Shown: piece by piece, positions 25,383 to 46,700 of the stretch
How positions within the stretch are numbered: position 1 is the stretch's first letter
Layout: every line of letters starts with the position of its first letter
Source of the DNA: Candidatus Woesearchaeota archaeon
GTDB taxonomy: Archaea > Nanobdellota > Nanobdellia > Woesearchaeales > JACPBO01
Direction: 5' to 3'
DNA length: 64,000 nt
NCBI GenBank assembly: GCA_016180285.1
Contig: JACPBO010000002.1
Location: forward strand, 15,570-79,569
Made by a program: the position numbers and the translations under genes
The notes under the pieces: generated by a model
What the model was told of the DNA's origin: nothing
Database searches by the model: none
What the model saw: the letters and a program-made list of their open reading frames with translations, nothing else

Positions 25383-25569
25383 TTTTTAATCCCCCTTAAG
25401 TTCCAGACTGTCTGGAGTGGTTTATTCTAAACCAATTCCTTTTTTAAATATAATTACTCAATACTTTATAAACATTGTTGCCATATGATGTATCTATTAC
25501 ATCCTATGTTTTCCACCAGAAACCAAGGGGGTTTATGAACTGTAATATAGCCATTTAAAAACAAAAGTA

Positions 25570-29200: not shown

Positions 29201-29512
29201 AAGGATGCGAAAAGGGCGATTGACATACTGCATTATTGCCTGAGCGAGATTGCGCTTGATAAAGAAACCGGCCAGATCGACATCGATAGAATCTCCACAG
29301 GCATTCCAAGTTCAGAGAGAAGCAAAATAACAATAATAAAAGAACTAATAGACAGGTTAAGTGAAAGGTCAAAGCAGATTGCTGTTCAGGATTTGGTTGA
29401 CATGGCTAAAGAGAAGAATATTGATGAAAGTGATGTGGATGAAGTCATTGAAAGGCTGAAACGTTCTGGCGACATCTTCGAACCTAAGCCTAGTTTAATC
29501 CAAAAGATTTAG
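26213..29512 (+). CDS. mcm: MCM replicative helicase (intein-containing precursor, 1099 aa)
   Basis: N-terminal Zn finger CPACGN...CGCG; Walker A LLIGDPGSGKSQLLK; Walker B region interrupted (ALVLANKGL | intein | CMIDELDKM); arginine-finger/sensor region downstream; exteins ~672 aa. Confidence 0.95.
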   Translation: MEASEQIRRFGEFFDLIYGAAIVENLRKGNKFLIVDFAELIKFDPELAEQLLEEPDEVVRAAELAIEESGREGDLKKFKVRFRNLPKTQQIMIRNIRSNHIGKLFWTEGIVRQKSDVRPQAVVAKFECPACGNTISVPQLDKKFREPSRCGCGKKGRFKLLSKELVDVQGIVLEEAPEDLEGGDQPKRMQIFLQCDLVSPLSEKRTSPGSKIRIGGIIKEVPITLQTGGQSTRFDLLIEANCIEGVEENFSDITISHEELKAIKELAEDPKIYARLINSIAPSIYGHDRIKEALILQLMGGLKKERKDGVSIRGDIHILLIGDPGSGKSQLLKRVSKISPKGRYVSGKGVSGAGLTATVVKDEFLRGWSLEAGALVLANKGLCVTGDTAILLANGSVIPMKQVYEEHLKGKEVCVQSLDAKTFKICEQKVLGVSRRIAEKLFEIKFDTGDKLHITPEHPLPVWDNGLRWVPCGRLKSGASVVLPTEFISKKDVKNILLLELCGMIATDGHLTKKKYGISFYSTKEWMIERIKYLVNACFGKEMHVHKNNRGSLHAHIGSKEIHEKIKNFGIPVGKKNGLTDNVLLNLSHDDIKAFIIGAVNGDGSISNRKGGGIVSLITQNFQTAETYRKLLRKIGLIGRIRKINSRGGGIVKEGTYTIFHVCITGRENIARLWDSRLEPAKLAALNKILKRRSMDGRIPHVNDLIESVRVELKHGQKQALYMNSIKQSQLDGGYGVRRGTLQRALGALAALLILPANSLQTLKNVAQDSVHIGKITGISDIPPAEVFNLQTDAKEGPNYIANFIPVHNCMIDELDKMSTEDRSAMHEALEQQSVSISKANIQATLRAETTVLAAANPKFGRFDPYGEPISKQINLPTTLINRFDLIFAIKDLPHPDRDEKMAKFILGMHQNPDVENVELDTKLLRKYIAYARQNVHPKLSDGASDEIQSYYLKMRASGTVEGEMKSIPISARQLEALVRLSEASAKVRLSDAVTKKDAKRAIDILHYCLSEIALDKETGQIDIDRISTGIPSSERSKITIIKELIDRLSERSKQIAVQDLVDMAKEKNIDESDVDEVIERLKRSGDIFEPKPSLIQKI
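27359..28639 (+). mobile_element. Intein (427 aa) with LAGLIDADG homing-endonuclease domain inside mcm
   Basis: Begins CVTGDTAILLANG (Cys1, block A) and ends ...FIPVHN followed by extein Cys (CMIDELDKM); two LAGLIDADG-like blocks LLELCGMIATDGHL and FIIGAVNGDGSIS. Coordinates derived by frame counting from 26213. Confidence 0.85.
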
Positions 29513-31804: not shown

Positions 31805-34800
31805 TCAGCCAAACCATTTTCCTAATCCTGTTTGCTTGTCTTTCTGCTTTCCAAACACGCCCTCTATCATCCTTTTTGTAAGCTCCAATGTTTGTTTTAG
31901 ATATGGAGGGAGGTTGTATTTTTCAGCTAATGAAAGTGTTGGCTCCAGATACTTTACAACGCTCCCTTCAGATACCGTGAATATTATTTTACCGCCGCAT
32001 TTTGTGCACTTGCCTATTAATGGCGGCCTTCTGAATTTTTCATTGCACTTTACACACCTAAATTGCTGTGTTGAAAATTTTCTAAGGTTGCCCCTTATGT
32101 CCCTTAGCAAATGCTTTTCTATAACAAGACGTGCAACGTCTACAGCATTAACTGCCCTTATCCTTTCAGCCAGGTCCATTTGGCCCTTAAGCTTTTCCTC
32201 CATTGAAGGGAGTGTTTTATATGCGGAGCACATCACTCCCGAATTTATGCTCGAAACATCATGCGTAAAGCCTAAGCCTTCGTACTGCGCTGCTGTTCCA
32301 AGCCGCTTGCCTAATTTCTCTATTTCCACTTCCCAGGGATATTTGTATTTTGATGCTGCATCATAAAGCTCTAAAGGATATTTCCGGGCAACATCCATTC
32401 CATGCACCATGTCATCAACTTCGCCAGGTATAAGCTTGGTTGTCAAAACAAGCGGGCTGTCCATCGTCCTGCCGCCGCGCTTATCTGGCAAAAACTGTCT
32501 TGAGAAATTAAGCAAAGCATCCATCAGCAGCATTATGCAGCATTCATCGCCATCGCAGTCGCGGCGCAAAGCTGCATGCCAAAGCGGATGCGCATAGCAT
32601 CCCTGGGTTTCTGAGAATCCTATTACGCGGCCAATCATCCCTGCCGAAATATGCGGCGCGAGCCCGATAACAATGCTGCCGATCAAATCTTCCTTGTTTT
32701 TAAAATTATAAAAAGGCTGCTGGCCATACATTACAGCTAAAAGCTCATCAACAAAATTTGCCATTCTCATCAAAACAATGTCTGCGGTTTCATCAAGCGC
32801 TTCCTGCCCCGAAGGAAGGATAATGTCCTGAGGCCTGAGCTCAATTATCTGGTTTCCTGATTCCAATTCTTTTCCAAAAATATCTTTTTCATACCCAAGC
32901 TCTTTCAGCTTCTTCAGCGATGTTTTGATCTCTCTCTGCTTAAAATGAGTTATTGGCAATTCAGTCATGTCATACCTTATCGTGCCGTCCTTGTTTACAT
33001 AAACATCGTGCTTTGCCCTGATGATTCCTTTCAGTATGTTCTCAGGAATATGATCTTTATTTGACGTTCCTCTGACGCCTTTGATGAGATCAGGCGTGGT
33101 CTTTGTTTTCAGCTTGTTGTTCAAAACAGCATCAAAAAGCTCGTTTATGTTTACATCCTGTGTTTTGAATGTTGATGCGGGGCCGTGTTTCTTGCATACT
33201 TGCTCTTCTATGTTTCCGCATATTCTGCAGAAAAATTTTTTCTTCGTTTTTTTGTCGCACGTCTCGCAGACCGACAGAACTGTCTCTTTGTTGCAATGGC
33301 CGCAATAATAGATTGGAAGATCCGCCCTTACCTTTCCGATTTCTGACGCTGACTGGAACGACCGCAATCTCCCGCCTTCTTCCCCGACGGGAAATAACAC
33401 CTGCGGGCTGCCAGTGAGCTTCCTCATTTTTGATTTTTCAGGCCTGCCCATTCTTGCGCCAATGAATGTTCCTGCCTTATCCCTCAGATTTATACTGGAT
33501 ATTGAGTTTATTATCTCTAAAGGGTTTTTTTCTTTATTTTTTTTTGTGAATTCCTCTAATTCTGAAATTTTATCATTTGAAGTTATGTTTAAGCTGGCTA
33601 AGATGGATTCTGCTTCTTCTTTTTCAATAACAACAAATTCTTCATTAACTGATAGGTGTGGCGCGCCAACCAGCTCGAGTATCCTTTTCGCATCTTCCTT
33701 GAAAGGCAGAACTATCTTTATTATTTTTTCTTCCTTAATAATGCTGGCTTTCTTGAACCATTCTAAAAATAGAAGAAATTGGTCTGTTGATATCGCAGTC
33801 CAATAATAACTGAAGCTGGGGTGAAGGGGGATGTTTAATTTTCTTGATATGTTTATCGCATCTGATGCTGAAATTTTTTCCGAAGGGTTTTTTAATATCT
33901 TGGCCAATATTGCTGATGGCACTTCTGCAAGATCGGATAGTTTTTCAACATCCAGCGAGCCGAATAAATCTACAGTTGCTTTTTCAAGCTCTTGCGCATA
34001 CCATTCCTCGCAATATCCTGCAGGAACAAGTGCATGCCCATTCTCAGAAAAATCTCCATAATTTATCAATATATCACCTAAAAAAAGTATCTCTCCTATG
34101 TTTCCTAAATTGTCTTTTGCTTCCTCTTCAGTATTTATTTTTATAACGTTGCCGTTGGTTAATTTCACTATCGGCCCGTCTATTGCATCGCAGCTGGTTA
34201 CTGCAGTTGCTTTTCCTGGCCGCTCTATTTTCAGTTGCGTGCCTACGGCCACATATTTGTTCAGAATGCGCATCGTTGCAGGATGAATTGCCGCTGCGCT
34301 GAACCCGGATGTTCTTGATCGCCCATAACGCAGACGAAATCCTCCTGCTGCTGAAGGGTGGGACAGCACAGGCCTGCCGGCAACTAAATCCGCGATATAT
34401 GTGTAATTCGGAGTGACTTTTAATGTCTTTTCCTTCTCCTCTGTTCCTGCTTTCTTCTTCTTTTGCAGCTCCAAAAATTTTTCTAGGAATGACCAGTCTA
34501 TGCCGAACTCTTTTTGGAATTTTTGCAGTTTCTTCCATAATTTTGGGGCTTTTAACGTCAGCATAGACACAACAAGGCAGACGCCGCTGCGAATTTTGTT
34601 TGTCGAGATTCTGTCCAGGTCTTTATAATTGCTGACTTCGATTTTTTCTGTGGGGTCGCCATCAACTTCGACTGTAAGATTTTTCACCAAAAGGGCAATT
34701 TCCTCTTTGCTCGGCTTATATTGGAGGTTTGTTACAAATTCGTGATAGTCGTAGAGCTCAGTTATTGTCCTGTTTATTTCTTTTTCATCCGGGTCATACA

Positions 34801-35356
34801 CATCATAACCCATTTTTTTTCTTACATAATCTGCTATCACAACGGAAACTGATGCTCCTGTTCCCCCTGCCCCTCTTACTGGCCCAGCGTAACTAACCGC
34901 AAGATAATCCTTGCCATCTCTTCTCTTTTTTATTTTTAATTCCACAAAACCCTCTAAAGGAGCGGAAACTATGCCGAGGGTGTGGTATGCGAACCCCACT
35001 CTTATCCCGGTCTCCATTGCCTCTTTCCTATCGCCGAATTTACAGAATTTTTCCTGCGCAACTTCTTCTGCTATTTTTAATGCAACCTCCCATGCAAGAG
35101 CGCCATGCTCTCTTTCCAGCTCCCGTATCCGTTTTATCATTCCGGAACCCAGAAGCTTTGGAGTAACTGCGGATATGAGGCCTTCTACACGCTCAGCCAT
35201 ATCATGAGCCAAGGGAATGTCTACTTTTTCTTCAGGGTCATATCCTTTTTTCCTCGCTTCATTGGCCACCTTATAGGCTGCGCTTAATTGATTCTCTATT
35301 GCCTCAAAGTATTCCTGCATTTCTTTGCTTTCTGATTCCTTAGTCATCTTAACCAA
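31805..35356 (-). CDS. polC: DNA polymerase II (PolD) large subunit DP2
   Basis: 1183 aa; N-terminal MVKMTKESESKEMQEYFEAIENQLSAAYKVANEARKKGYDPEEKVDIPLAHDMAERVEGL...; Zn-finger cluster CGHCNKETVLSVCETCDKKTKKKFFCRICG; C-terminal Cys module CVKCNEKFRRPPLIGKCTKCGGK; no intein (length typical). Confidence 0.95.
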   Translation of the reverse strand: MVKMTKESESKEMQEYFEAIENQLSAAYKVANEARKKGYDPEEKVDIPLAHDMAERVEGLISAVTPKLLGSGMIKRIRELEREHGALAWEVALKIAEEVAQEKFCKFGDRKEAMETGIRVGFAYHTLGIVSAPLEGFVELKIKKRRDGKDYLAVSYAGPVRGAGGTGASVSVVIADYVRKKMGYDVYDPDEKEINRTITELYDYHEFVTNLQYKPSKEEIALLVKNLTVEVDGDPTEKIEVSNYKDLDRISTNKIRSGVCLVVSMLTLKAPKLWKKLQKFQKEFGIDWSFLEKFLELQKKKKAGTEEKEKTLKVTPNYTYIADLVAGRPVLSHPSAAGGFRLRYGRSRTSGFSAAAIHPATMRILNKYVAVGTQLKIERPGKATAVTSCDAIDGPIVKLTNGNVIKINTEEEAKDNLGNIGEILFLGDILINYGDFSENGHALVPAGYCEEWYAQELEKATVDLFGSLDVEKLSDLAEVPSAILAKILKNPSEKISASDAINISRKLNIPLHPSFSYYWTAISTDQFLLFLEWFKKASIIKEEKIIKIVLPFKEDAKRILELVGAPHLSVNEEFVVIEKEEAESILASLNITSNDKISELEEFTKKNKEKNPLEIINSISSINLRDKAGTFIGARMGRPEKSKMRKLTGSPQVLFPVGEEGGRLRSFQSASEIGKVRADLPIYYCGHCNKETVLSVCETCDKKTKKKFFCRICGNIEEQVCKKHGPASTFKTQDVNINELFDAVLNNKLKTKTTPDLIKGVRGTSNKDHIPENILKGIIRAKHDVYVNKDGTIRYDMTELPITHFKQREIKTSLKKLKELGYEKDIFGKELESGNQIIELRPQDIILPSGQEALDETADIVLMRMANFVDELLAVMYGQQPFYNFKNKEDLIGSIVIGLAPHISAGMIGRVIGFSETQGCYAHPLWHAALRRDCDGDECCIMLLMDALLNFSRQFLPDKRGGRTMDSPLVLTTKLIPGEVDDMVHGMDVARKYPLELYDAASKYKYPWEVEIEKLGKRLGTAAQYEGLGFTHDVSSINSGVMCSAYKTLPSMEEKLKGQMDLAERIRAVNAVDVARLVIEKHLLRDIRGNLRKFSTQQFRCVKCNEKFRRPPLIGKCTKCGGKIIFTVSEGSVVKYLEPTLSLAEKYNLPPYLKQTLELTKRMIEGVFGKQKDKQTGLGKWFG

Positions 35357-36947
35357 ATCTCAATATCTTGATTTTTCTTGTTTGCAAATTTACTATAGGA
35401 ACCCTTGCCGGCTCCGGGTGGTGCCCCACCTTTTCCTGAAATGATGTTTTTGACTGCCAGCAAGAGCCGCAGATCATAGTTATATTTTTGTAAGCTGCCA
35501 CGCAGGTTTTATGAATATGGCCTGTGGCGAAAAAATCAGGTATCATCTCAATCACAAGGGAATCTTTATTTGCATCGGGCATGTAGAGTGTTGACGTGTG
35601 CGTTGGCGCAAGATGCCTTCTTCTTAATAGGAAGGACATTATAAGGTCTGCCCTGTCATAGCCTCCGTTTCTCCTTATTGAATCAACATGGGCAACATAA
35701 TAATCGAAAGAATAACCATGATAAAGCAGCACATCAAATCCTGAAAAGTCTTTTGTCTCGTGTATCCTTACAACAGAGGGGTTTGATACCATAGTTACAT
35801 TTGGCAATTGCCAAATTGCTCCTGCGAAATCCTTGTAAAGCTGCGGCTGCGGTTCAGCAATGCGCATTGCATCATGATTCCCCGGGCAAATAATAATTTG
35901 GATGTTTTTGGGGATTTGCTGAAGCAATTCTGCGCATTTATTGTACTGAGCATAAATGTCCTTGATTTCAAGTTCAGAATCTTGCTCCGGATAAACGCCT
36001 ACGCCATCAACAAGATCGCCGATAATGAAGAGATATTTTATTTTTCTGGCTATCTCTTGCTGCGCTTCGTCGCCAAGGCCTCCATTGATCCAGTTTAGGA
36101 ACTTGTTGAATTCTTCAGGAAGAAACTGTTTTGAGCCAACATGCAGATCTGATAAAAAGATGGCATATGCCTCATCTGGAGATTTTTTAAGTTCTCTTGT
36201 GAGGGGCACCTCCGGCCAAATGATATCGTCTGCAAACACTATTCTGTTGCCATTGACGCCAACTATGCCAATAATCTCATCCAGAACAATATTTAGCGCT
36301 TCAGCATATAATTCTGGCTTGTTTTTATTCACAAGCACTTTTATTTCACCTGTCGGGTCTTCAACAGCAAGCACGAGGTTTTTGTTTTTTGTCTGCGCTA
36401 TTTCTTTAACTATGCCTATCAATGATATCTCGCTTCTGTCTTTTTTTGACACTATCTTGCTAATAGAAGTGAGGTTTTTGATCTCTTGTCTGTTTCGAAG
36501 TATTTTTTCAAGCGCTTTGTGCCTCGCATTAAAAAATGATGCAAAATCCTGTGCTTCTCTTTGTTTTAGGTCATCAACATACGAAAAGAGCACCTTAACG
36601 CCGTTGTTTGGGGGTGCGATTTCTTCCTCTCTTTTTTCTTTTGACAAAAACTCCAGGAATTGCCCGTATATTTTTGCATTTTCGTTTTTTTCAAATTTAG
36701 TTGCTGCTTTTTCGAATTCCTTCCAGTTGAGCTCTATGCCTTTGTTTTCATCCAGTATTTTGGTTATGTCTCTGTTCAGAATAAGAATTTCTTCAAAAAA
36801 TTCTTTATTTTTTAGGTTTTCATGGAACTTGTTCAGGTCTATGTCCTTTATCGCCCCGAATATATCTGGGTTTAACAGAATGCCTTTATCGTAAAAAAAT
36901 CTGACAATTCTCTTTTTATTTTCCAGTTCGTTATCCATTTTAGGCAA
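35349..36947 (-). CDS. polB: DNA polymerase II (PolD) small subunit DP1 (calcineurin-like phosphoesterase)
   Basis: Metallophosphatase motifs DLHVGS, GDLVDG, GNHD, GH; N-terminal DP1 domain; overlaps DP2 start by 8 nt. Confidence 0.9.
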   Translation of the reverse strand: MPKMDNELENKKRIVRFFYDKGILLNPDIFGAIKDIDLNKFHENLKNKEFFEEILILNRDITKILDENKGIELNWKEFEKAATKFEKNENAKIYGQFLEFLSKEKREEEIAPPNNGVKVLFSYVDDLKQREAQDFASFFNARHKALEKILRNRQEIKNLTSISKIVSKKDRSEISLIGIVKEIAQTKNKNLVLAVEDPTGEIKVLVNKNKPELYAEALNIVLDEIIGIVGVNGNRIVFADDIIWPEVPLTRELKKSPDEAYAIFLSDLHVGSKQFLPEEFNKFLNWINGGLGDEAQQEIARKIKYLFIIGDLVDGVGVYPEQDSELEIKDIYAQYNKCAELLQQIPKNIQIIICPGNHDAMRIAEPQPQLYKDFAGAIWQLPNVTMVSNPSVVRIHETKDFSGFDVLLYHGYSFDYYVAHVDSIRRNGGYDRADLIMSFLLRRRHLAPTHTSTLYMPDANKDSLVIEMIPDFFATGHIHKTCVAAYKNITMICGSCWQSKTSFQEKVGHHPEPARVPIVNLQTRKIKILRFG

Positions 36948-36966: not shown

Positions 36967-38190
36967 TCAAGATAAGTCTAACTCTTCCTCTAATATCTTT
37001 CTTATTTTTGGCTGTGTTGTTGGGGGTATTGAGAGGGATATTTCTCTTGTCCTCCCATAACGGCCCTTTGATATTATCTTTGTACTTATAACGCCAAGCA
37101 TATCCAATTCAGCTATAATATCTGACATCCTTCTTTGCGTTAATGGCCTCAACCCAATCTTTGAGCACATTTTTTTATAAAGGTCATAAACTTCTCCTGT
37201 AAAAACAAGCTCCTTCCTATTTGAGCAGACAGCAACTATTGAATAAAGCGAGAGTTGGAATTGCTTGGGCTGTGTTTTCACGATATCAATTACCCTGTCA
37301 TGGTCTATCTTGTCTTGCGCTTCATCAATGTGCTCGATTTTTAATATTGTTTCGTCTTTTCTCTCAGCTATTTCGCCAGCCACCCTCAGCAACTCAACTG
37401 CCCTTCTTGCATCTCCGTGCTCTCCTGCAGCGTATGCAGCGCATTTTTCAATTACTCCTATCCCTATTGCTCCCTGCCTGAATGCCTTTTTTGCCCTCTC
37501 TCTCAATATATCCTGCAGCTGCAGCGCATTATATGATGGGAAAAATATTTCCTCCTCGCTTAAAGAGCTTTTGATCCTGGGGTCAAGGTTGTCTGTAAAA
37601 AGCAGGTCATTGGATATGCCGATAAGTGAAATCTGGGATTTTTTAAGCTCTGTGTTTATTCTGGTTAGATTATACAGGATTTCGTCCCCTGCTTTTTTAA
37701 CTAACTGGTCTATTTCATCCAAAACAAGCAGCAGCATCTGATCTTTTTGTTCCATTATGTTAAAAAATATTTTATAAATTTCATCTGTCGGCAATCCCGT
37801 AGATGGCACTTCTTTGCCTAAAGCTCTGATCAGCTGGGCAACAAGTCTGTATTCTGTATCGGCCACTTTTTTCAGCTTGCAGTTGATGAAAACGGGGGTT
37901 ATTGGTATTTTTTCCCGGTTAGCTATGCTTGATAAGTGGTTGATTATATTTATTGTTGAAAGTGTTTTTCCGCTTCCGGTTTTTCCATACAAAAAAAGAT
38001 TTGATGGTTTTTCTAATTTAAGCGCCGGAGCAAGGATTTCTGCCATCTGGCTTATCTGTTCTTCTCTGTGCTGTACTGTGTCTGGCGCATATGTCGGCTG
38101 CAAAAAACTTTTTTGAGAAAAAATTTTAGATTCTTTTTTCAAAAATCTTTCAAAAAAAATATTTATGTTGTTGTTGCTCTTTTTTGCCAT
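36967..38190 (-). CDS. cdc6: Orc1/Cdc6 replication initiator (AAA+ plus winged helix)
   Basis: Walker A LFLYGKTGSGKTLS; Walker B LLVLDEIDQL; sensor/wH C-terminus. Start placed at MAKKSNNN (internal Met of track ORF) with TATA-like box ~30 nt upstream. Confidence 0.9.
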   Translation of the reverse strand: MAKKSNNNINIFFERFLKKESKIFSQKSFLQPTYAPDTVQHREEQISQMAEILAPALKLEKPSNLFLYGKTGSGKTLSTINIINHLSSIANREKIPITPVFINCKLKKVADTEYRLVAQLIRALGKEVPSTGLPTDEIYKIFFNIMEQKDQMLLLVLDEIDQLVKKAGDEILYNLTRINTELKKSQISLIGISNDLLFTDNLDPRIKSSLSEEEIFFPSYNALQLQDILRERAKKAFRQGAIGIGVIEKCAAYAAGEHGDARRAVELLRVAGEIAERKDETILKIEHIDEAQDKIDHDRVIDIVKTQPKQFQLSLYSIVAVCSNRKELVFTGEVYDLYKKMCSKIGLRPLTQRRMSDIIAELDMLGVISTKIISKGRYGRTREISLSIPPTTQPKIRKILEEELDLS

Positions 38191-38244
38191 TTTACGTATT
38201 TCCAAAAGAAGTGTAGCTTTAAATATTTTTTCATAATTAAAAAT

Positions 38245-38392
38245 ACACACCCCCTTATTTCTATTGGAAACTATAGTTTTATTTTTTAGTTTTTTATTGT
38301 TATTTTATTATTTACTATATTGAAAATAAATATAAATATAATATAAAAACAAAAAAACATAAAAACAAACTCCATAAGAAATAAAGGGGTCC
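38245..38392. promoter_or_regulatory. Predicted replication origin (oriC): two inverted ORB-like elements flanking an AT-only DUE
   Basis: ORB-like 1 (bottom strand) at ~38247..38271: GTTTCCAATAGAAATAAGGGGGTGTG. ORB-like 2 (top strand) at ~38370..38391: CTCCATAAGAAATAAAGGGGT. Both fit the archaeal ORB pattern TCCA-N-GAAA-N-GGGG(T) and are in inverted orientation around a ~90-bp 100% A/T segment (38281..38369). Confidence 0.55.
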
Positions 38393-38488
38393 CACCAAAC
38401 ATTTCATTACTATATGATAGTCAAAAATAGAAACATTTAAATATATGTGTTGCTTTCTAAAGGAAATAAGGTGATGGGGAGTTGAAAA

Positions 38489-39307
38489 ATGATAGTTCAA
38501 AAAAGTTTTTTGAATAAGTTGAAGGATTTTGGTTTGAATAGTTATGAAGCTAAGTTATGGACGGCGTTGCTTTCTCGCGGCGTTTCTACTGCTGGCGAGT
38601 TAAGCGATATTGCCGGCGTTCCAAGAAGCAGAAGCTACGATGTTCTTGAAAGTTTAGAGAAAAAAGGATTTATAATTATGAAGGTGGGGAAACCAATCAA
38701 ATACCTCGCTGTAAAGCCGGAAGAAGTCGTTGATCGCGTTAAAAAAAGAATAAGGGAAGATGCAGTTAAGGAAGAGGAAATTCTCGAGGAGATCAAAAAA
38801 ACAAACACACTTAGTGAATTGAATCTATTGCACAAGCAGGGCATTGAGCTTGTCGATCCGACTGATTTAAGCGGCAGTATAAGAGGCAGAGACAATATCT
38901 ACAACCACCTCGATTTTATGATAAAGGGCGCTGAAAAATCCGTTGTTTTGGTGACAAGTGCAGATGGCCTTGTTAGAAAATCAAAAGAGCTGAGAAAAAC
39001 ACTGGAAAAAGCAAAAGAAAGGGGAGTTAAGATAAAGATAGCTGCGCCTTTGGGCAAAGAAGCGCAGGAAGCTTATAAAAATTTAAAAGGAATCGCAGAG
39101 CTTAAGCACATAAACGATCCGCAGGCAAGATTTGCTATTGTCGACGGCAAGAGCCTTTTGTTTATGTTGATGGATGACAAAAATGTCCACCCAAGCTACG
39201 ATGTTGCTGTTTGGGTTGCAACACCTTATTTTGCATCTGCATTTGAAAGCTTCTTCAACAATAGCTGGCAGAAACTGGATGCGGCTGAAAAGGCGCTTAA
39301 CAAATAA
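38489..39307 (+). CDS. TrmB-family transcriptional regulator
   Basis: N-terminal FGLNSYEAKLWTALLSRGVSTAGELSDIAGVPRSRSYDVLESLEKKGFI matches the TrmB HTH domain; SD aaGGTGAtgg upstream. Confidence 0.85.
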   Translation: MIVQKSFLNKLKDFGLNSYEAKLWTALLSRGVSTAGELSDIAGVPRSRSYDVLESLEKKGFIIMKVGKPIKYLAVKPEEVVDRVKKRIREDAVKEEEILEEIKKTNTLSELNLLHKQGIELVDPTDLSGSIRGRDNIYNHLDFMIKGAEKSVVLVTSADGLVRKSKELRKTLEKAKERGVKIKIAAPLGKEAQEAYKNLKGIAELKHINDPQARFAIVDGKSLLFMLMDDKNVHPSYDVAVWVATPYFASAFESFFNNSWQKLDAAEKALNK

Positions 39308-39368
39308 TTTTAGAGATAAATATGCGCGCCTTCACAGGCAGATATTGCTTATTTGCTTAAGAGGACTG

Positions 39369-40157
39369 ATGAGCATAACACAAACAGCATTTGATCTGAC
39401 AAATTATCTGGCAGGAAAGAATCCTAAAAATCTAAGCAGTGAAGACATCAGTGGGCTGCGAATTCAATTAAGTCAGTTAGAAGAAACATGCATTGGATCT
39501 GACAAACCACTCAGAGAAAATTTAAAAGGACAAATAGTTCTGGTGGATTACCCGCAATTAAACCTTAGCTTTTTAGAAATGTCGCAAGAAACAGAATTTG
39601 ATGGAAAAAAAGCACGCATACCGAAATTCGGAGTTTACGAGATTGACGTTTCAACTATGCAAGTATATGATGCACAACTATATATCGGTCGCAATCATCT
39701 TCCCAAATGTTTTGGTGGCGGGTGGGAATGCAGTTTAAACGACACAAATGAAATACCCGGTTCTTTTTTCGTGTATATTATAAGAAGCATTTTTGGCCCT
39801 TTTGATGAAGCAAGACTGGGCATCGAATCATCAGGAGAATATTGGTGGGTGGGAGGGATAGTTCCTGAAAAAGAATTTAAAACAAAATATGGCAAGGGGC
39901 TGCGCGGCAAAACAATAAAGAGCGGATTTTATGGAAGCATTCCAACAGAAACGCAAGAAAAGATAAGCGAAGCTGAGAAAACCAACTATTTTGACGGGTT
40001 TTTTATTATTGCAGAAACAAGCCCAGAAGATTGGACCGATGAGCCCGCATCAGAAAACAAAAACACAGCCGCATCTAAGAACGCAATAGCTGTTGGAACT
40101 CAGGGTGAAAATGCATTTTATTTAGATAAGTTTAACCCGGATCTTAAAACATCATAG
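39369..40157 (+). CDS. Hypothetical protein
   Basis: Start set at MSITQTAFDL (first Met after the trmB stop; track ORF begins inside trmB in another frame); no recognised motif. Confidence 0.4.
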   Translation: MSITQTAFDLTNYLAGKNPKNLSSEDISGLRIQLSQLEETCIGSDKPLRENLKGQIVLVDYPQLNLSFLEMSQETEFDGKKARIPKFGVYEIDVSTMQVYDAQLYIGRNHLPKCFGGGWECSLNDTNEIPGSFFVYIIRSIFGPFDEARLGIESSGEYWWVGGIVPEKEFKTKYGKGLRGKTIKSGFYGSIPTETQEKISEAEKTNYFDGFFIIAETSPEDWTDEPASENKNTAASKNAIAVGTQGENAFYLDKFNPDLKTS

Positions 40158-42144: not shown

Positions 42145-43242
42145 TCAATTTATAAGTTTACCCCTCTTCAAAAGTGCCTCTAACACTTCCTGCTTTTCTG
42201 AAGCATATGCAAACCCTATTTTATTATAGAATTTTAAGAGGTTTTCTTTTCCTTTGATATAAAATCTTCCACAAAATTCTCTGCCTTTCTGTTTGCGTAA
42301 TTGGATATGTGAAGTTGCAATGCCAAAATGAGCCAACATAGCTCTTATTTGATTTAGAAACTCAAGCAAGTTGGTCACATGGTTTTTGTTTTTGGATAAT
42401 ACAAACTGGATTCTCCATACGTTGTTTTGCGGTTTTGAACCTTCATTTCCATAAATTATCGACAAGAATGTTTTCTTAATTTTATCAGGGCCATTATAAA
42501 TCCAGTCCGGAATTAAAAATGGAGTGAATACCTTATTGCCGCATGGCACACCCAAATAAATAAGCAATTCAGCAAAACCTTTGCTGCAAAAAACAATTCT
42601 AAAGCAAAATTGGTTGTATTTTAGAGATAGATATTCTCCTTTAAAAATAGAATTGAAATACAATCTAAATTCAACAGCATCTTTATTTTGATTAAAATCA
42701 TACTCTGCTTGCTGTAAGTTTTTTCTTACATGGCCATCACCCATTAAGAAACCAATGTTGGTAACTAAAAAATTTAGAACATGTTCATCATAGAACAGAG
42801 TTAAACCATATTTCTTAACAAAACCAAACTCCCCTATTTCATCAAAATTTAGCTTATGGTTTATTTCTAGATTCTCAAATGTATCCTCAAGTATTAACTC
42901 TTTAATATTCTCTTTATGCTCTAGGTCTGAAGGGACCAAGTAATCATCGTATATTCTTCTCAGTTTTACTCTATTAGAGACGCTGTAAAAATATCCAGAC
43001 TTTAGTTGTGTTGGTGTTCTTATTATTTTATTTTTTGCGTAAAGCCTCGTCATTATTGTAGAAATTGCACTATTGCAAGTGTTGTCTTTATAAATTTCGT
43101 TATAGATATTAGCCATACTCTTAATACCAAAAACCATATCAGGATGTAGCATTAAAATATCATAAACTCTTTTGGATTTTGAACCAATTAACTCTAAATT
43201 CTTAATCTGCATTTTCTGATTGTTGGAGTTCATCTTACGCAC
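42145..43242 (-). CDS. HTH-containing protein with LAGLIDADG-like motifs (possible free-standing homing-endonuclease-like/DNA-binding protein)
   Basis: N-terminal wHTH-like KRVYDILMLHPDMVFGIKSMANIYNEI; central NIGFLMGDGHV and LSIIYGNEGSK resemble LAGLIDADG blocks; divergent from the palindrome-bearing intergenic region. Confidence 0.35.
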   Translation of the reverse strand: MRKMNSNNQKMQIKNLELIGSKSKRVYDILMLHPDMVFGIKSMANIYNEIYKDNTCNSAISTIMTRLYAKNKIIRTPTQLKSGYFYSVSNRVKLRRIYDDYLVPSDLEHKENIKELILEDTFENLEINHKLNFDEIGEFGFVKKYGLTLFYDEHVLNFLVTNIGFLMGDGHVRKNLQQAEYDFNQNKDAVEFRLYFNSIFKGEYLSLKYNQFCFRIVFCSKGFAELLIYLGVPCGNKVFTPFLIPDWIYNGPDKIKKTFLSIIYGNEGSKPQNNVWRIQFVLSKNKNHVTNLLEFLNQIRAMLAHFGIATSHIQLRKQKGREFCGRFYIKGKENLLKFYNKIGFAYASEKQEVLEALLKRGKLIN

Positions 43243-43497: not shown

Positions 43498-43782
43498 ATG
43501 CCTTCAAAAAAAGAGAAAGGCCTTATTGAACGAAAAAAAGTCCATTTAAAGCCTAAAGAGTTGAAAGATAGACCTATTTCTTTTAGTCCATACTCTGAAT
43601 TGAAGATTCCTTCAACAATATTTCTTGACCGCGACGTAAGCATTCTTGAAGCGGTTGTTGAATATTTGAAAGATAAAGTCGGCATGACATATCACGAGAT
43701 TGCAGTTCTTCTTGAGCGGGATGATCGCACAATCTGGACCTCCTATAGCCGCGTAAAGAAAAAAAGAGTGAAGAATGTTTGA
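43498..43782 (+). CDS. Small sigma-70 region-4-like/LuxR-like HTH protein (94 aa)
   Basis: C-terminal MTYHEIAVLLERDDRTIWTSYSRVKKKR resembles the sigma-70 r4 HTH (xxEIAxxLgxsxxTVxxxxxRAxKK); paralog at 55315..55548; overlaps giant gene start by 8 nt. Confidence 0.55.
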   Translation: MPSKKEKGLIERKKVHLKPKELKDRPISFSPYSELKIPSTIFLDRDVSILEAVVEYLKDKVGMTYHEIAVLLERDDRTIWTSYSRVKKKRVKNV

Positions 43783-46700
43783 TCTGAAGAGAAAAAAAGA
43801 GGAGCAGAATGAGCTTGAAGATCTTGTTAGCAAGGACTATCATAGAATTGAAGAAGATAAAGTTAAAGAAAAAGCAATAAAGAAATACAAGCCTGAATTT
43901 GTGGTTGCTCTTTTATTGATTGTAGCATCAATGCTTATTTTCAGGGCCGCTTACACTGGCTTGTTTATTTATGGCGAGGCAGGTTATTCTAAAGAGCTTA
44001 ATTTGACATTTAATGAAACAGCAACTTACAATCTATTTTTAAACGCAAGCCCGCTTTCTTTAAAGCTTTCTGGCTCCGTAGTCGGGAATGGTTATGCTAA
44101 GGTTTATTTGTTGGATAATGGAATCAGAAAATTGATTGTTGATAGCTCTCAATTGCAAACTTCTTATGATTTAATAACTGCTTATGCTATTGCTGAAGAA
44201 TTTTTGAACGAAACAAATATTCCGGAGAATATTACAAACACAACTGAAGCAATAAACCAAACAACAAATGCGGCAGAGAACATTGCGGAAATTGCAAATC
44301 AAACAAATTTAACCGAAACAAGCCCGACTTTGCCTGAAAACATAACAGAACCCGCCAATCAAACAGAAAACATCGCAATAAATCGTGCTCCCGTATGGAT
44401 TTTTGATGCCGATTCATTTATTGTGGCTGGAAATTTAACAATAAACCTTTCGCAGTATTTTATTGATCTTGACAATGATTCTATTTCTTACATTGTTTCA
44501 GAGCCTGAAAACGTGCTTATTTTAAAAGAATTTGAAATGATAACCTTGGCGCCAGATGCAAATATCGTCGGGAATAGAACAATTAAGATATTTGCTTCTG
44601 ATCTAAAAAACACAACTGAAAAAGAAGTTACACTGGTTATTAACACAACAAAAGAGGCTGCTGAAACTGCTCCTGAAAACATAACAATTCCCGTAAAAGT
44701 GTTTGACAGCATTTGTGTTGATACGTGTTTCTTAACAGGCGTTGGCAGAAATATAACTTTATTGATCGAAATAGAGAATGCAACACTGAACTTAACAAAA
44801 TTAGAATATGATGCAAAACCTGAAAATATAACTGCCAATAACCCGCCGCAATGCAGCCTGATCCCAAATGTCAATATTTCTAAAAATGAGCTTTCTACAA
44901 TATGGCTGGATAAATACTGCTCAGATGCCAATGATGATACTTTGAGTTATGATGTTTCTCTTAGTTCAAAAGAAGTTGATACAATGATCACAAAAGATAT
45001 GGTTACGTTTATTCCGAGAAAGAATTTTGTCGGAACAACATTCATGTCCTTCGTAGTGAATGATTCTAAGAACATAACTTTCACAAATATAATTGTCATT
45101 AATGTAACAGGCAACATAACTGAGAAAAAAAGAAATGCAACGATTAATCTAAAAAACAATAAAAAAGAAAAAACAGGCAGTTATAGCTTAACAAACAACA
45201 GCGACGAAACATTTGATTTGGAGCTCAGCAATCTGCCTGGCTTTGGAGTTTTAGAGAAGAAAAAGGAATCCAGAATAAATATTAAAAAAATAAAAGAACT
45301 GAAAGACGCCGATGTTTTAATTGATGCAATAGAAGACAACAGAATAGGAACAGATGTATTTGCAATAAATGAAACCCTTGATTTTGAAAGCGCAGCAATA
45401 ACTTTAGCTAAGAATTCTGATGTGAATTCAGTGTTTTACTGCTCTGATTTTGATTTTGAAACCTTGTCTTGCTCAAATTGGCAGAAAACAGACATTCCAT
45501 TTACAGATAATGGAAATACAATAACATTCAATGTAACTCATTTCTCGGCTTATGCTGGCGGTTTGACAATAATAAATGTATACAGCCATCCTTCTTTATA
45601 TGGAAACTGGATAGTTGGCTTTAATACTACAGGAGCCGCTAATTTGACAATAACAGCTACAAGAGAGAGCAATTACACCAACATCTACACGAGATGGAGC
45701 AATGAAAGCGAAGATTCTGGATTGTACGATTTAAGATTTCTCGAAGTAAAGTGCGGCAATCAGACTATGAATTACGAATGGCAAGGAACAAACTGCTTTG
45801 AGCAGGAGTGCAGCGTATTTATTGCCAACTATTCATGTAATGAAACTGCGCAAGAGATAAGCAAAGTTTTGACGGCAAAAAGGCACGTCTTGAAGTTTGA
45901 GTTTGGCGGGCAGATTGCATATGCTTACAATGCCGTTGGAAACGAAAGCTCAGATTCAGGAACAGACGAGTGGAGGATGTTTGGCAGATACCTTAATCAG
46001 ACGCGTTATACAAACTCAGCAGCTCCTACAAATCTGGCTAATGCAAAGATTATAACATTTTCAAGTACAAGTACTATTCAGTCTTCTCCTGCTGTTGCCA
46101 ACGGCTATGTGTATGTTGGCAGTGATGATGCCAAGCTATACCAGCTTAATGCTTCTAATATCAGCCAGCAAGTAGCGAGTTTTTCAGCAGCCGGCGCTAT
46201 TTATTCCTCGCCTGCTGTTGCTGATGGCTATGTTTATATTCTGAATTACAATACAACAATATACCAACTCAATGCCTCAAATGTCAGCCAGAAGATAGCA
46301 AGCTTTTCAACTGGCGGAGGCTTTTATAATACACAATCTTCTCCTGTTGTTTCCAATGGCTTTGTCTATGTTGGAAGCTCGCTAGGAGTGTTATATCAGC
46401 TTAATGCATCCAATGTCAGCCAAAAAATAGCAAATTTCACAGCCGGCGATGGCATGTATACTGTGCCTGCTGTTGCCAATGGCTTCGTGTATGCAGGAAG
46501 CAATGATGCTAAATTATACCAGCTTAATGCATCCAATGTCAGCCAGCAGATAGCAAATTTCTCAGCCGGAGTCTTTTATTCTTCTGCTGCAGTTGCCAAT
46601 GGATTTGTATATGTGGGAAACGATGATGGTAATCTATACCAGCTTAACGCATCAAATGTCAGCCAAAAAATAGCAAATTATTCAACTGGCGGGGCCATTA

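What the first reader, a model, noticed from the sequence alone, without database searches (positions are those of the whole stretch)
38191..38488. Predicted oriC between cdc6 and trmB: inverted ORB-like elements around a 100% A/T unwinding element
Archaeal origins typically lie next to orc1/cdc6 and consist of inverted Origin Recognition Boxes (ORB/mini-ORB with a G-string) flanking an AT-rich DUE. Here GTTTCCAATAGAAATAAGGGGGTG (bottom strand, ~38247..38271) and CTCCATAAGAAATAAAGGGGT (top strand, ~38370..38391) face each other across 38281..38369, which contains only A and T. The replisome genes polD-small, polD-large and (across tbp) mcm cluster within 12 kb.
Basis: partly seen in the sequence, partly recalled or inferred. 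Interest (0 to 1): 0.6.

Follow-up and report, generated by a model that had tools for sequence, protein, structure and literature searches.

The report
Replication origin beside archaeal cdc6 gene
A 148-base stretch next to the replication-initiator gene of an uncultivated Woesearchaeota (DPANN) archaeon has the sequence hallmarks of a standard archaeal chromosome origin, and dozens of related genomes share the layout, so this is a sound but unsurprising origin prediction with two small new details.

Summary
Two inverted Origin-Recognition-Box (ORB) elements sit at 38246-38270 (-) and 38369-38393 (+). They flank a 98-nt spacer that is 92% A+T, not 100% as claimed, and is the most AT-rich stretch of the window. 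On one side lies the orc1/cdc6-polD(small)-polD(large) operon, on the other a TrmB-family regulator gene.

The ORBs match the published archaeal consensus. The initiator is closest to the two Orc1 proteins crystallised on ORB DNA. In 55 of 61 related Woesearchaeota loci an inverted ORB pair lies upstream of cdc6, and in 53 of 55 it encloses the most AT-rich 60-mer of the locus. The pair occurs with or without the trmB neighbour.

I therefore read this as a canonical oriC1-type origin (confidence about 0.8), a new member of a known kind. GC skew within 64 kb is dominated by gene orientation and decides nothing. No functional data exist.

Two extras emerged:
- A 16-bp palindrome (38311-38326) sits exactly midway in the spacer and is conserved in 34 of 55 relatives.
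- A further ORB (25510-25534) lies upstream of tbp-mcm. It is conserved in about 50 of 73 related loci, often as direct pairs 83-85 nt apart. This suggests Orc1 also regulates helicase expression.

The parts
38246..38270 (-). ORB-L (cdc6-proximal origin recognition box): TTTCCAATAGAAATAAGGGGGTGTG, with the G-string pointing toward cdc6
   Evidence: PWM score 31.2 bits. It matches the 22-nt Methanomassiliicoccales ORB consensus at 16 of 22 positions. It is identical in three close relatives. An equivalent '+' ORB lies about 40-180 nt upstream of cdc6 in nearly all of the 80 related loci.
38271..38368 (.). AT-rich spacer, the putative duplex unwinding element (98 nt, about 92% A+T). The left arm 38271-38310 is T-rich (28 T, 8 A) and the right arm 38327-38368 is A-rich (31 A, 8 T).
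   Evidence: It is the most AT-rich stretch of the window. In 53 of 55 related loci the most AT-rich 60-mer of the roughly 9-kb locus lies between the inverted ORBs.
38311..38326 (.). Central near-palindrome TTTACTATATTGAAAA (family TTTWC-WATATW-GWAAA), at the midpoint of the spacer
   Evidence: This is the only exact match in the window. Exactly one copy occurs in 34 of 55 ORB-flanked spacers, against 0.25 expected. Of 9 copies elsewhere in 635 kb, 7 are also just upstream of cdc6.
38369..38393 (+). ORB-R (cdc6-distal origin recognition box): ACTCCATAAGAAATAAAGGGGTCCC, with the G-string pointing toward trmB
   Evidence: PWM score 28.0 bits. In close relatives the TCCA, GAAA and GGGG blocks are conserved while the outer flank diverges. 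An equivalent '-' ORB is present in 55 of 61 related loci.
38218..38225 (-). TATA-like box (TATTTAAA on the cdc6 strand) of the cdc6-polD operon, about 28 nt upstream of the ATG and about 20 nt from ORB-L
   Evidence: Read directly from the sequence. It is invariant in close relatives. Calling it a promoter is an inference.
36967..38190 (-). orc1/cdc6 initiator gene (407 aa)
   Evidence: Pfam Cdc6_C, Cdc6_lid and AAA domains. The closest solved structures are S. solfataricus Orc1-1 (2qby_A, E 1e-105) and A. pernix ORC1 (2v1u_A, E 1e-99), with the ISM 'TGL', HTH 'TQRR' and wing 'GRYGRT' motifs conserved.
35349..36947 (-). DNA polymerase D small subunit (DP1), directly downstream of cdc6
   Evidence: Pfam DNA_pol_E_B and Metallophos. 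The cdc6-DP1 linkage holds in 80 of 80 related loci.
31805..35356 (-). DNA polymerase D large subunit (DP2)
   Evidence: Pfam PolC_DP2 N-terminal, central and catalytic domains.
38489..39307 (+). TrmB-family transcription regulator, the divergent neighbour. It is not a constant part of the origin module.
   Evidence: Pfam TrmB and Regulator_TrmB. It is the neighbour in only 29 related loci. The ORB pair is present in 30 loci that lack it.
25510..25534 (+). Extra-origin ORB (TTTCCACCAGAAACCAAGGGGGTTT) about 40 nt upstream of the TATA-like boxes of the tbp-mcm operon
   Evidence: PWM score 24 bits. It is the third of only 3 pattern matches in the window. It is conserved upstream of tbp in 49 of 73 metagenomic loci, with 62 of 63 hits on the tbp strand.

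Best explanation
Window 38246-38393 is the chromosomal replication origin (oriC1 type) of a Woesearchaeota archaeon.

Proposed mechanism:
1. Monomers of the adjacent Orc1/Cdc6 bind the two inverted ORBs. This step is inferred from motif identity and from conserved DNA-contact residues.
2. Their opposed polarity brackets the 98-bp, 92% A+T spacer, to which MCM is recruited and where the duplex opens. This is inferred by analogy with the Sulfolobus oriC1 ORB3-DUE-ORB2 module and with Aeropyrum Ori1.
3. A conserved 16-bp palindrome at the exact centre of the spacer is probably the binding site of an additional dimeric factor, or the nucleation point for melting. This is inferred from conservation only.
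4. The cdc6-proximal ORB lies about 20 nt from the TATA-like box of the cdc6-polD operon. Initiator occupancy therefore probably also feeds back on transcription of the initiator and polymerase genes. This too is inferred.
For: 1. Anatomy. Two consensus-type ORBs lie in inverted orientation around the most AT-rich stretch of the window. The whole 148-nt module is an imperfect palindrome: as ssDNA it folds at -22.9 kcal/mol, z = -4.2, with 0 of 200 shuffles as good.
2. Position. The module lies immediately upstream of the only orc1/cdc6 gene, which heads a cdc6-DP1-DP2 operon. This is the gene order next to the experimentally mapped Pyrococcus oriC (PMC4010727 and PMC1904270).
3. Motif identity. 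The Woesearchaeota consensus is tTTCCAtaGGAAAT.AAGGGGTg. The published archaeal ORB consensus is CTTCCAGTGGAAACGAAAGGGGT and the Methanomassiliicoccales consensus is GTTCCAGTGGAAATGG-AGGGGTA (PMC4153887).
4. Cognate initiator. The best PDB matches are the two Orc1 proteins solved on ORB DNA. The residues aligned with the ISM Gly-Leu, the HTH Arg and the wing Arg are conserved (residue roles from PMC3089459) and are invariant in 26 Woesearchaeota homologues.
5. Conservation.
 - In 635 kb from 80 related genomes there are 143 PWM hits, against 0-3 in shuffles. Of these, 129 lie within 700 nt upstream of cdc6.
 - 55 of 61 loci have the proximal-plus/distal-minus pair.
 - Spacers run 90-999 nt and average 80.5% AT, against 62.7% for the loci.
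 - In 53 of 55 the most AT-rich 60-mer of the locus lies inside the pair.
6. The pair tracks cdc6, not trmB. It is present in 30 loci that lack the TrmB neighbour.
7. Phylogenetic footprint in relatives whose Cdc6 is 90-92% identical. ORB core positions are kept while the outer flank of ORB-R diverges.
8. Gene co-orientation in the window is maximal for a breakpoint at 37.75-38.75 kb (76.6%). This is weak support.
9. Size. The minimal functional S. islandicus oriC1 is a 130-bp ORB3-DUE-ORB2 unit in which both ORBs are essential (PMC12141716). The module here is 148 bp.
10. ORC1/Cdc6 is reported among the single-copy orthogroups conserved across complete Nanobdellota genomes (bioRxiv 10.64898/2026.05.13.725050). 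That is compatible with one cdc6-linked origin.
Against: - There is no functional evidence of any kind: no marker frequency, no Orc1 binding, no unwinding data.
- GC skew gives no independent support. Per-gene skew is explained by gene orientation (coefficient about 0.11). The residual left/right effect at 38 kb is small and of the unexpected sign (-0.044), and it is driven by two giant genes. The window-wide cumulative minimum lies at about 25 kb, another divergent gene junction.
- ORBs are not exclusive to this site. A conserved ORB also lies upstream of tbp-mcm without any DUE. So ORBs in this lineage can act as non-origin, probably regulatory, sites.
- Only two ORBs are present. There is no mini-ORB cluster of the Pyrococcus kind: TCCA-N3-GAAA occurs 8 times against 4.1 expected.
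- In some archaea (Thermococcales, Haloferax) canonical origins are dispensable or conditionally used (PMC11005403). Sequence hallmarks therefore do not prove that the origin is used.
Confidence: 0.8

Rival explanations
1. The region is an Orc1-responsive (or other-factor) divergent promoter region only. On this reading the ORBs are transcriptional operators of a replication-gene regulon (cdc6-polD and tbp-mcm), and replication does not start here.
For: - The same motif, in the same orientation relative to the downstream gene and at a similar distance from TATA-like boxes, is conserved upstream of tbp-mcm, where there is no inverted partner and no extreme AT tract.
- ORB-L sits about 20 nt from the cdc6 TATA-like box.
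- Non-origin genomic binding sites and transcriptome effects of Orc1 proteins are reported in Sulfolobus (PMC3607249).
Against: - The cdc6 site has features that the tbp site lacks and that a promoter does not need. These are a second, inverted ORB 90-999 nt away, the most AT-rich 60-mer of the locus between the two ORBs in 53 of 55 genomes, and a central palindrome.
- The best 60-mer AT content is 93.7% inside the pairs, 85.4% elsewhere in the cdc6 loci, and 84.1% near the tbp ORBs.
- Regulation and origin function are not exclusive of each other.
Confidence: 0.09
2. The region is a genuine origin by ancestry but dormant or dispensable. Most replication in this organism would then start elsewhere or by recombination-dependent initiation.
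For: Origin-independent or conditional initiation is documented in Thermococcales (PMC11005403), and dormant origins in Haloferax (PMC4595724, listed). Nothing in the window shows that this origin is used.
Against: - All three elements (two ORBs, the AT tract and the palindrome) are under strong purifying conservation across genomes whose Cdc6 is only 57-66% identical.
- The initiator is reported among the single-copy orthogroups conserved across complete Nanobdellota genomes.
- No second orc1/cdc6 gene or ORB pair exists in the 64 kb.
Confidence: 0.08
3. The resemblance is chance or non-specific: an ordinary AT-rich divergent intergenic region with a fortuitous inverted repeat, or a small mobile-element terminal repeat.
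For: Intergenic regions in this 39% GC genome are generally AT-rich. Other divergent junctions reach 78-87% AT in their best 60-mer.
Against: - The pattern TCCA-N3-GAAA-N4-GGGG has 0.01 expected matches per window and 3 observed.
- Conservation of position, orientation and partner is seen in 55 of 61 genomes.
- The module has no other copies in the window, so it is not a repeated mobile element.
- There is no Rfam hit, no tRNA and no credible ORF.
Confidence: 0.01

Closest known systems
Sulfolobus/Saccharolobus oriC1 (ORB3-DUE-ORB2 module bound by Orc1-1)
   Same: - Two inverted ORBs flank a highly AT-rich DUE next to the orc1-1 gene.
- The compact size is comparable: 130 bp there (PMC12141716) and 148 bp here.
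- The initiator here is most similar to Sso Orc1-1 (2qby_A, E 1e-105).
- A sequence-specific motif lies midway between the ORBs.
   Different: - Sulfolobus has a third ORB (ORB1); only two are found here.
- The central motif is different. The Sulfolobales ucm is ATTATACAAAC and binds UBP. Here it is a 16-bp palindrome, TTTWCWATATWGWAAA, and the ucm is not present above chance.
- The dyad part of the window's ORBs is degenerate (AGAAA rather than GGAAA).
- ORB polarity relative to the DUE could not be compared with the tools available.
Pyrococcus/Thermococcales oriC (the first mapped archaeal origin)
   Same: The origin lies directly upstream of a cdc6-dp1-dp2 gene cluster. Two long ORBs form an inverted repeat with AT-rich regions (PMC1904270 and PMC4010727).
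   Different: - Pyrococcus ORBs are 34 bp, with 10 nt between GGAAA and the G-string (TTCCAGTGGAAATGAAACTCTGGGGGG). The gap here is 4 nt.
- Pyrococcus has many 13-bp mini-ORBs and a second ORB cluster inside dp1. Neither is seen here.
Aeropyrum pernix Ori1 (four 22-bp ORBs, AT-rich region between ORB2 and ORB3)
   Same: - Short ORBs bracket the AT-rich region that becomes nuclease-sensitive on ORC1 binding.
- ORC1 prefers T-rich single strands (PMC8287685), and the spacer here has strongly T-rich and A-rich arms.
- The initiator here aligns to ApeORC1 (2v1u_A) at E 1e-99.
   Different: There are four ORBs there and two here. There is no evidence here for unwinding or ssDNA binding.
Predicted ORB pairs of Methanomassiliicoccales and the pan-archaeal ORB consensus (Pelve et al. 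2013, as quoted in PMC4153887)
   Same: The ORB architecture is the same, TTCCA-N2-GGAAA-N4-GGGGT. Identity to the Methanomassiliicoccales consensus is 16 of 22 for ORB-L and 15 of 22 for ORB-R. The ORBs occur as inverted pairs beside orc1/cdc6.
   Different: Those ORB pairs are described as lying downstream as well as upstream of orc1/cdc6, with spacings of 39-256 nt. No central palindrome is reported there.
Non-origin DNA binding and transcriptional roles of archaeal Orc1/Cdc6 proteins (Sulfolobus Orc1-2 DNA-damage regulator; non-origin ChIP-seq sites of the Sulfolobus Orc1/Cdc6 proteins)
   Same: This is the closest precedent for the tbp-mcm upstream ORBs: Orc1-family proteins occupying promoter regions away from origins (PMC3607249; PMC9738581, listed).
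   Different: - Here the motif at the promoter is the full origin-type ORB, not a distinct regulator motif.
- The organism appears to have a single Orc1.
- The target is the tbp-mcm operon.
- I found no description of such sites in the searched literature.

Membership tests
Archaeal oriC1-type (Orc1/ORB) replication origin | Located adjacent to an orc1/cdc6 initiator gene | tested here: met
   The module 38246-38393 ends 56 nt upstream of the cdc6 ATG at 38190. Cdc6 is identified by Pfam and by PDB similarity.
Archaeal oriC1-type (Orc1/ORB) replication origin | Two or more ORB elements matching the archaeal ORB consensus (TTCCA..GGAAA...GGGGT) | tested here: met
   ORB-L matches the published 22-nt consensus at 16 of 22 positions and ORB-R at 15 of 22. 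The pattern has 3 matches in the window against 0.01 expected.
Archaeal oriC1-type (Orc1/ORB) replication origin | ORBs in inverted orientation flanking an AT-rich duplex unwinding element | tested here: met
   The ORBs lie on opposite strands with their G-strings outward. The 98-nt spacer is 91.8% AT and is the most AT-rich stretch in 64 kb.
Archaeal oriC1-type (Orc1/ORB) replication origin | Cognate initiator of the Orc1-1 type with ORB-contacting wH and ISM residues | tested here: met
   The best PDB hits are 2qby_A and 2v1u_A. The ISM 'TGL', HTH 'TQRR' and wing 'GRYGRT' motifs are conserved and invariant in 26 homologues. Residue numbering is inferred from the alignment.
Archaeal oriC1-type (Orc1/ORB) replication origin | Arrangement conserved in related genomes | tested here: met
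   55 of 61 loci have the inverted pair. In 53 of 55 the pair encloses the locus-wide AT maximum. Close relatives align base for base.
Archaeal oriC1-type (Orc1/ORB) replication origin | Nucleotide-skew inflection at the site | tested here: inconclusive
   The raw cumulative skew has local minima at about 25 kb and about 38 kb, both at divergent gene junctions. After removing the gene-orientation effect, no origin-type signal remains. A 64-kb window is too short for this test.
Archaeal oriC1-type (Orc1/ORB) replication origin | Specific binding of Orc1/Cdc6 to the ORBs (footprint, EMSA, ChIP) | not testable with these tools
   This needs recombinant protein or ChIP. The organism is uncultivated.
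Archaeal oriC1-type (Orc1/ORB) replication origin | Replication actually initiates here (marker frequency, 2D gels, initiation-point mapping, ARS activity) | not testable with these tools
   No read-depth data and no whole chromosome are available. The window's own Cdc6 is not on record in the contig index.
Thermococcales-type oriC | cdc6-dp1-dp2 cluster directly downstream of the origin | tested here: met
   (80 of 80 related loci keep cdc6-DP1).
Thermococcales-type oriC | Multiple 13-bp mini-ORBs in oriC and a second ORB cluster inside dp1 | tested here: not met
   TCCA-N3-GAAA occurs 8 times in the window against 4.1 expected, with none clustered. No PWM hit lies in dp1.
Sulfolobales/Desulfurococcales ucm-UBP origin module | 11-bp ucm (ATTATACAAAC) within the DUE | tested here: not met
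   The DUE has only a 2-mismatch match, one of 52 such matches in the window. The central conserved motif here is a different 16-bp palindrome.

The most novel reading that the evidence does not exclude
Woesearchaeal origins may be tripartite (ORB - central TTTWC-WATATW-GWAAA palindrome - ORB). On this reading the palindrome is the binding site of an unidentified dimeric origin factor that plays the positional role of the Sulfolobus ucm/UBP pair. In addition, the single Orc1/Cdc6 of these reduced-genome archaea would double as a transcription factor. It would bind phased ORBs (83-85 bp apart) upstream of the tbp-mcm operon, tying helicase and TBP supply directly to initiator status.
Probability: 0.35. 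Interest if true: 0.6.

Novelty: new member of a known kind. Interest (0 to 1): 0.4.

Why it matters
DPANN archaea are uncultivated, so their replication biology is known only from gene inventories. The one recent study of complete Nanobdellota genomes that I found rotates them to ORC1/Cdc6, and a term search of its text found no mention of ORB, oriC or GC skew.

A sequence-defined origin model (ORB PWM, AT tract and central palindrome) would give several practical benefits:
- a principled zero coordinate for these genomes;
- an anchor for growth-rate estimates from metagenomic coverage (peak-to-trough ratio);
- an explanation for why many Woesearchaeota MAG contigs break just upstream of cdc6;
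- concrete DNA substrates for biochemistry with recombinant Orc1.

The conserved ORBs upstream of tbp-mcm, if bound by Orc1, would be a simple and testable case of an archaeal initiator controlling expression of its own helicase.

Tried and rejected
- GC skew as evidence. Per-gene regression shows that the inflection at 38 kb is a gene-orientation effect. The residual is small and of the wrong sign. I rejected it as support or refutation.
- A third ORB at 38454-38478 (I8; 15.7 bits). It is not conserved as an ORB in close relatives: GAAA becomes TAAA in L081, and the conserved part is the GGTGAT Shine-Dalgarno sequence of trmB. Rejected.
- The central palindrome as the operator of the neighbouring TrmB regulator. 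Its presence is independent of TrmB adjacency (17/25 against 17/30, Fisher p = 0.42), and it lies beyond ORB-R, about 110 nt from the trmB TATA-like box. Not supported.
- The Sulfolobus ucm in the spacer. It is not present above chance.
- A mini-ORB cluster or ORBs in dp1, as in Pyrococcus. Absent.
- A non-coding RNA or small ORF in the intergenic region. There is no Rfam hit at gathering threshold or at E <= 1, no tRNA, and only low-complexity ORFs.
- tbp-upstream as a second origin. There is no inverted partner, no palindrome and no extreme AT tract. Rejected in favour of a regulatory site.
- Provenance of the window. Its own Cdc6 is not in the contig index.
- ORB polarity relative to the DUE in validated origins. 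The key paper (PMC4724246) is not held, so this was left untested.
Full report
**Observation**

The intergenic region 38191-38488 (298 nt, 78% A+T) lies between an orc1/cdc6 gene on the minus strand and a TrmB-family regulator gene on the plus strand. The cdc6 gene runs 36967-38190. Its start is the ATG at 38190, which aligns with the conserved Met1 of its homologues. The upstream GTG at 38250 listed by the ORF finder is not the start.

They are TTTCCAATAGAAATAAGGGGGTGTG on the minus strand at 38246-38270 (ORB-L) and ACTCCATAAGAAATAAAGGGGTCCC on the plus strand at 38369-38393 (ORB-R). Their shared 19-mer has no other match in 64 kb at up to three mismatches (0.16 expected). The generic pattern TCCA-N3-GAAA-N4-GGGG has three matches against 0.01 expected.

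The claim that 38281-38369 is 100% A/T is wrong. Seven of its 89 bases are G or C, so it is 92.1% A+T. The stretch is still the most AT-rich 98-mer of the window, at 91.8% against 86.7% for the runner-up. The best 60-mer of this intergenic region reaches 95% AT. No other intergenic region exceeds 86.7%.

**Organism and gene context**

The Cdc6 protein is 90-92% identical to proteins annotated as coming from Candidatus Woesearchaeota (DPANN/Nanobdellota) MAGs. Downstream of cdc6 on the same strand are the small and large subunits of DNA polymerase D. Further along, at 25.6-29.5 kb on the plus strand, lies tbp, followed directly by an intein-containing mcm.

The cdc6-DP1-DP2 order next to the origin is the classical Pyrococcus arrangement (PMC4010727 and PMC1904270).

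**Finer anatomy**

The 148-nt module 38246-38393 is symmetric:
- ORB-L;
- a 40-nt T-rich arm (28 T, 8 A);
- a 16-nt near-palindrome, TTTACTATATTGAAAA, at 38311-38326;
- a 42-nt A-rich arm (31 A, 8 T);
- ORB-R.

The TCCA ends of both ORBs face inward and the G-strings face outward. As a single strand the module folds into one long imperfect hairpin (-22.9 kcal/mol, z = -4.2, none of 200 shuffles as stable).

ORB-L ends about 20 nt from a TATA-like box (TATTTAAA on the cdc6 strand, 38218-38225), which lies 28 nt upstream of the cdc6 ATG. ORB-R is followed by a small palindrome (ACTATATGATAGT, 38409-38421), a second TTTAAATA box (38436-38443), a GGTGAT ribosome-binding site and the trmB ATG. The promoter assignments are my inference. 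There is no Rfam family, tRNA or credible ORF in the region.

**Is it an ORB?**

Sixty sites matching the 12 fixed bases of the pattern were collected from the window and 80 related loci. They show strong conservation at positions the pattern leaves free: T/C before TCCA, T/C after GAAA, AA before GGGG and T after it. The resulting consensus is tTTCCAtaGGAAAT.AAGGGGTg.

This is the architecture of the published pan-archaeal ORB consensus CTTCCAGTGGAAACGAAAGGGGT and of the Methanomassiliicoccales consensus GTTCCAGTGGAAATGG-AGGGGTA (PMC4153887 Table 2). ORB-L matches the latter at 16 of 22 positions and ORB-R at 15 of 22. Pyrococcus ORBs share the TTCCAGTGGAAAT core but place the G-string 10 nt away instead of 4.

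The initiator fits the motif. Its best solved relatives are S. solfataricus Orc1-1 (2qby_A, E 1e-105) and A. pernix ORC1 (2v1u_A, E 1e-99), the two proteins crystallised on ORB-type DNA. The residues aligned with the ISM Gly-Leu, the HTH Arg and the wing Arg that matter for binding are conserved. They are invariant among 26 Woesearchaeota homologues.

Eighty genome loci encoding Cdc6 proteins 57-66% identical to the window's were fetched. A 25-nt ORB weight matrix gives 143 hits of at least 16 bits in their 635 kb, against 0-3 in composition-preserving block shuffles. Of these hits, 129 lie within 700 nt upstream of cdc6.

The matrix was trained on these same loci. The non-circular count from the fixed pattern alone tells the same story: the pattern matches 49 of the 80 cdc6 loci, almost always upstream of cdc6.

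Of 61 loci with at least 1.2 kb of upstream sequence, 55 show the window's architecture. One ORB lies on the cdc6 strand about 40-180 nt before the ATG, and an inverted ORB lies further upstream. Spacers range from 90 to 999 nt (median 277) and average 80.5% AT, against 62.7% for the loci. In 53 of 55 the most AT-rich 60-mer of the whole roughly 9-kb locus lies between the two ORBs.

cdc6-DP1 linkage holds in 80 of 80 loci, but trmB is the upstream neighbour in only 29. Thirty loci have the ORB pair without it. The module therefore belongs to cdc6, not to trmB.

Three close relatives (L081-L083) are fully syntenic. In them ORB-L is identical. ORB-R keeps the TCCA, GAAA and GGGG blocks while its outer flank diverges.

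**A conserved element inside the spacer**

K-mer enrichment in the 55 spacers revealed a palindrome, TTTWC-WATATW-GWAAA. With at most one mismatch it occurs exactly once in 34 of 55 spacers, against 0.25 expected from shuffles. Of nine copies elsewhere in 635 kb, seven also lie just upstream of cdc6, in loci where a pair had not been scored.

In spacers of 300 nt or less it sits near the middle (mean relative position 0.48). In the window the single exact copy lies at the exact centre. Its presence is independent of the TrmB neighbour (p = 0.42).

It differs in sequence from the Sulfolobales ucm (ATTATACAAAC), which is not present here above chance. It does occupy the same position as the ucm, midway between the inverted ORBs, where in S. 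islandicus the ucm is essential and binds the protein UBP (PMC12141716).

There is also a modest conserved strand asymmetry. The cdc6-distal half of the spacer is T-rich on the cdc6 strand in 42 of 55 loci (p = 1e-4), and the two halves differ (p = 6e-5). The preference of A. pernix Orc1 for T-rich single strands (PMC8287685) makes this worth noting. I attach no mechanism to it.

**What does not help**

GC skew cannot decide the matter in 64 kb. Raw cumulative skew has local minima at about 25 kb and about 38 kb, and both are divergent gene junctions. In a per-gene regression, gene orientation explains the skew (coefficient about 0.11). The residual side effect at 38 kb is -0.044, the opposite of the usual leading-strand G excess, and it is driven by two giant genes at 43.8-55.3 kb.

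Gene co-orientation is maximal for a breakpoint at 37.75-38.75 kb: 76.6% of coding bases, against 73.3% at 25.5 kb. This is consistent with an origin but weak. The whole chromosome, read depth and protein binding are all out of reach here.

**ORBs outside the origin**

The third pattern match in the window, TTTCCACCAGAAACCAAGGGGGTTT at 25510-25534 (+), lies about 40 nt upstream of three TTTATAAA boxes that precede tbp-mcm.

In 80 metagenomic loci found with the TBP protein, 74 keep mcm right after tbp. There are 63 ORB hits against 0-2 in shuffles, and 62 of them lie on the tbp strand. Forty-nine of the 73 loci with enough upstream sequence have a hit within 400 nt of the TBP match, and more do so further up where TBP has a long Lys-rich N-terminal extension. 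Eleven loci carry two direct ORBs, and in ten of these the spacing is 83-85 nt.

These regions have no inverted partner, no palindrome and only ordinary promoter-level AT content: the best 60-mer averages 84%, against 94% in the cdc6 spacers. I read them as Orc1 operator sites rather than a second origin.

They matter for the main question in two ways. They show that an ORB alone does not define an origin in this lineage. By contrast, they also highlight what is origin-specific at cdc6: the inverted pair, the extreme AT tract and the palindrome. Non-origin binding sites of Orc1 proteins have been reported in Sulfolobus (PMC3607249). I found no description of ORBs at tbp-mcm in the searched literature.

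**Mechanism and confidence**

The best-supported reading is a canonical oriC1-type origin. Orc1/Cdc6 monomers would bind the two inverted ORBs with opposed polarity and recruit MCM to the intervening AT-rich element, where melting starts. The proximal ORB next to the cdc6 promoter would allow autoregulation of the cdc6-polD operon.

What the data show directly is the motifs, their significance, their conservation and the type of initiator. Binding, unwinding, MCM loading and actual use are inferred by analogy with Sulfolobus, Aeropyrum and Pyrococcus.

| Reading | Confidence |
|---|---|
| Functional oriC1-type origin | about 0.8 |
| Purely regulatory Orc1 site | about 0.09 |
| Conserved but little-used origin | about 0.08 |
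| Chance resemblance | about 0.01 |

**Novelty and score**

An oriC next to cdc6 with inverted ORBs and a DUE is exactly what specialists would expect, so this is a new member of a known kind. The only study of complete Nanobdellota genomes I found rotates them to ORC1, and a term search of its text found no mention of ORB, oriC or GC skew. The prediction and its lineage-wide model are therefore useful.

The central palindrome and the phased ORBs upstream of tbp-mcm are small new observations that can be tested directly. Overall interest is 0.4.

Noticed in passing
window 25510-25534 (+); related loci L084-L163: A full origin-type ORB lies upstream of the tbp-mcm operon. It is conserved in about 50 of 73 related metagenomic loci, always on the tbp strand, often as two direct copies 83-85 nt apart, and about 35-60 nt upstream of TTTATAAA boxes. 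There is no DUE-like AT tract and no inverted partner. The arrangement suggests that Orc1/Cdc6 regulates tbp-mcm transcription.
   Followed up: partly
window 38311-38326; spacers of L001-L080: A 16-bp palindrome of the family TTTWC-WATATW-GWAAA sits at the centre of the ORB-flanked spacer. It is present once in 34 of 55 related origins and almost nowhere else. It is positionally analogous to the Sulfolobus ucm but has a different sequence.
   Followed up: yes
L005, L006, L007, L012, L014, L017, L018, L019, L022, L030, L042, L049, L055, L079 (contig ends): Fourteen of the 80 genome contigs carrying cdc6 end 98-263 nt upstream of the cdc6 start, inside or at the edge of the AT-rich spacer. Assemblies of these MAGs seem to break systematically at the origin, probably through low coverage or low complexity of the 90-100% AT tract.
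   Followed up: partly
window 38409-38421 and 38436-38443: The perfect small palindrome ACTAT-ATG-ATAGT lies 15 nt upstream of the trmB TATA-like box. It is invariant in three close relatives. From memory it resembles TACT...AGTA-type TrmB operators, so it may be the autoregulatory site of the TrmB-family gene. A partial direct repeat of it (ATGATAGTTCAAAAAAG) overlaps the trmB start codon at 38489-38505 (D8).
   Followed up: no
L105, L118, L154, L160 (about 250-270 nt upstream of tbp) and 29 of the cdc6 loci: A TrmB-family regulator gene is the divergent neighbour of ORB-bearing regions in two different contexts: upstream of cdc6 in about half of the genomes, and upstream of tbp in a few. This may be coincidence or a functional link to replication genes.
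   Followed up: no
window 26213-29512 (+) and 42145-43242 (-): The MCM gene carries an intein with a LAGLIDADG homing-endonuclease domain inserted in the ATPase domain. A separate 365-aa ORF has a weak LAGLIDADG_3 match.
   Followed up: no
window 39174-40157 (+): A 327-aa ORF with no Pfam hit overlaps the 3' end of trmB by 134 nt. It lies in a gap of variable length between trmB and the AAA ATPase gene: 981 nt here, 425 nt in L081 and L082, and 79 nt in L083. It may be an insertion or a spurious ORF.
   Followed up: no
window 43775-48193 and 48249-55325 (+): Two very large ORFs lie here. The first (1472 aa) has beta-propeller/PQQ and LamG-type domains, and the second is about 2358 aa. Their own codon-position composition dominates the residual GC3 skew of the right half of the window. 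Any skew-based origin call on short contigs of such genomes would be distorted by genes like these.
   Followed up: no
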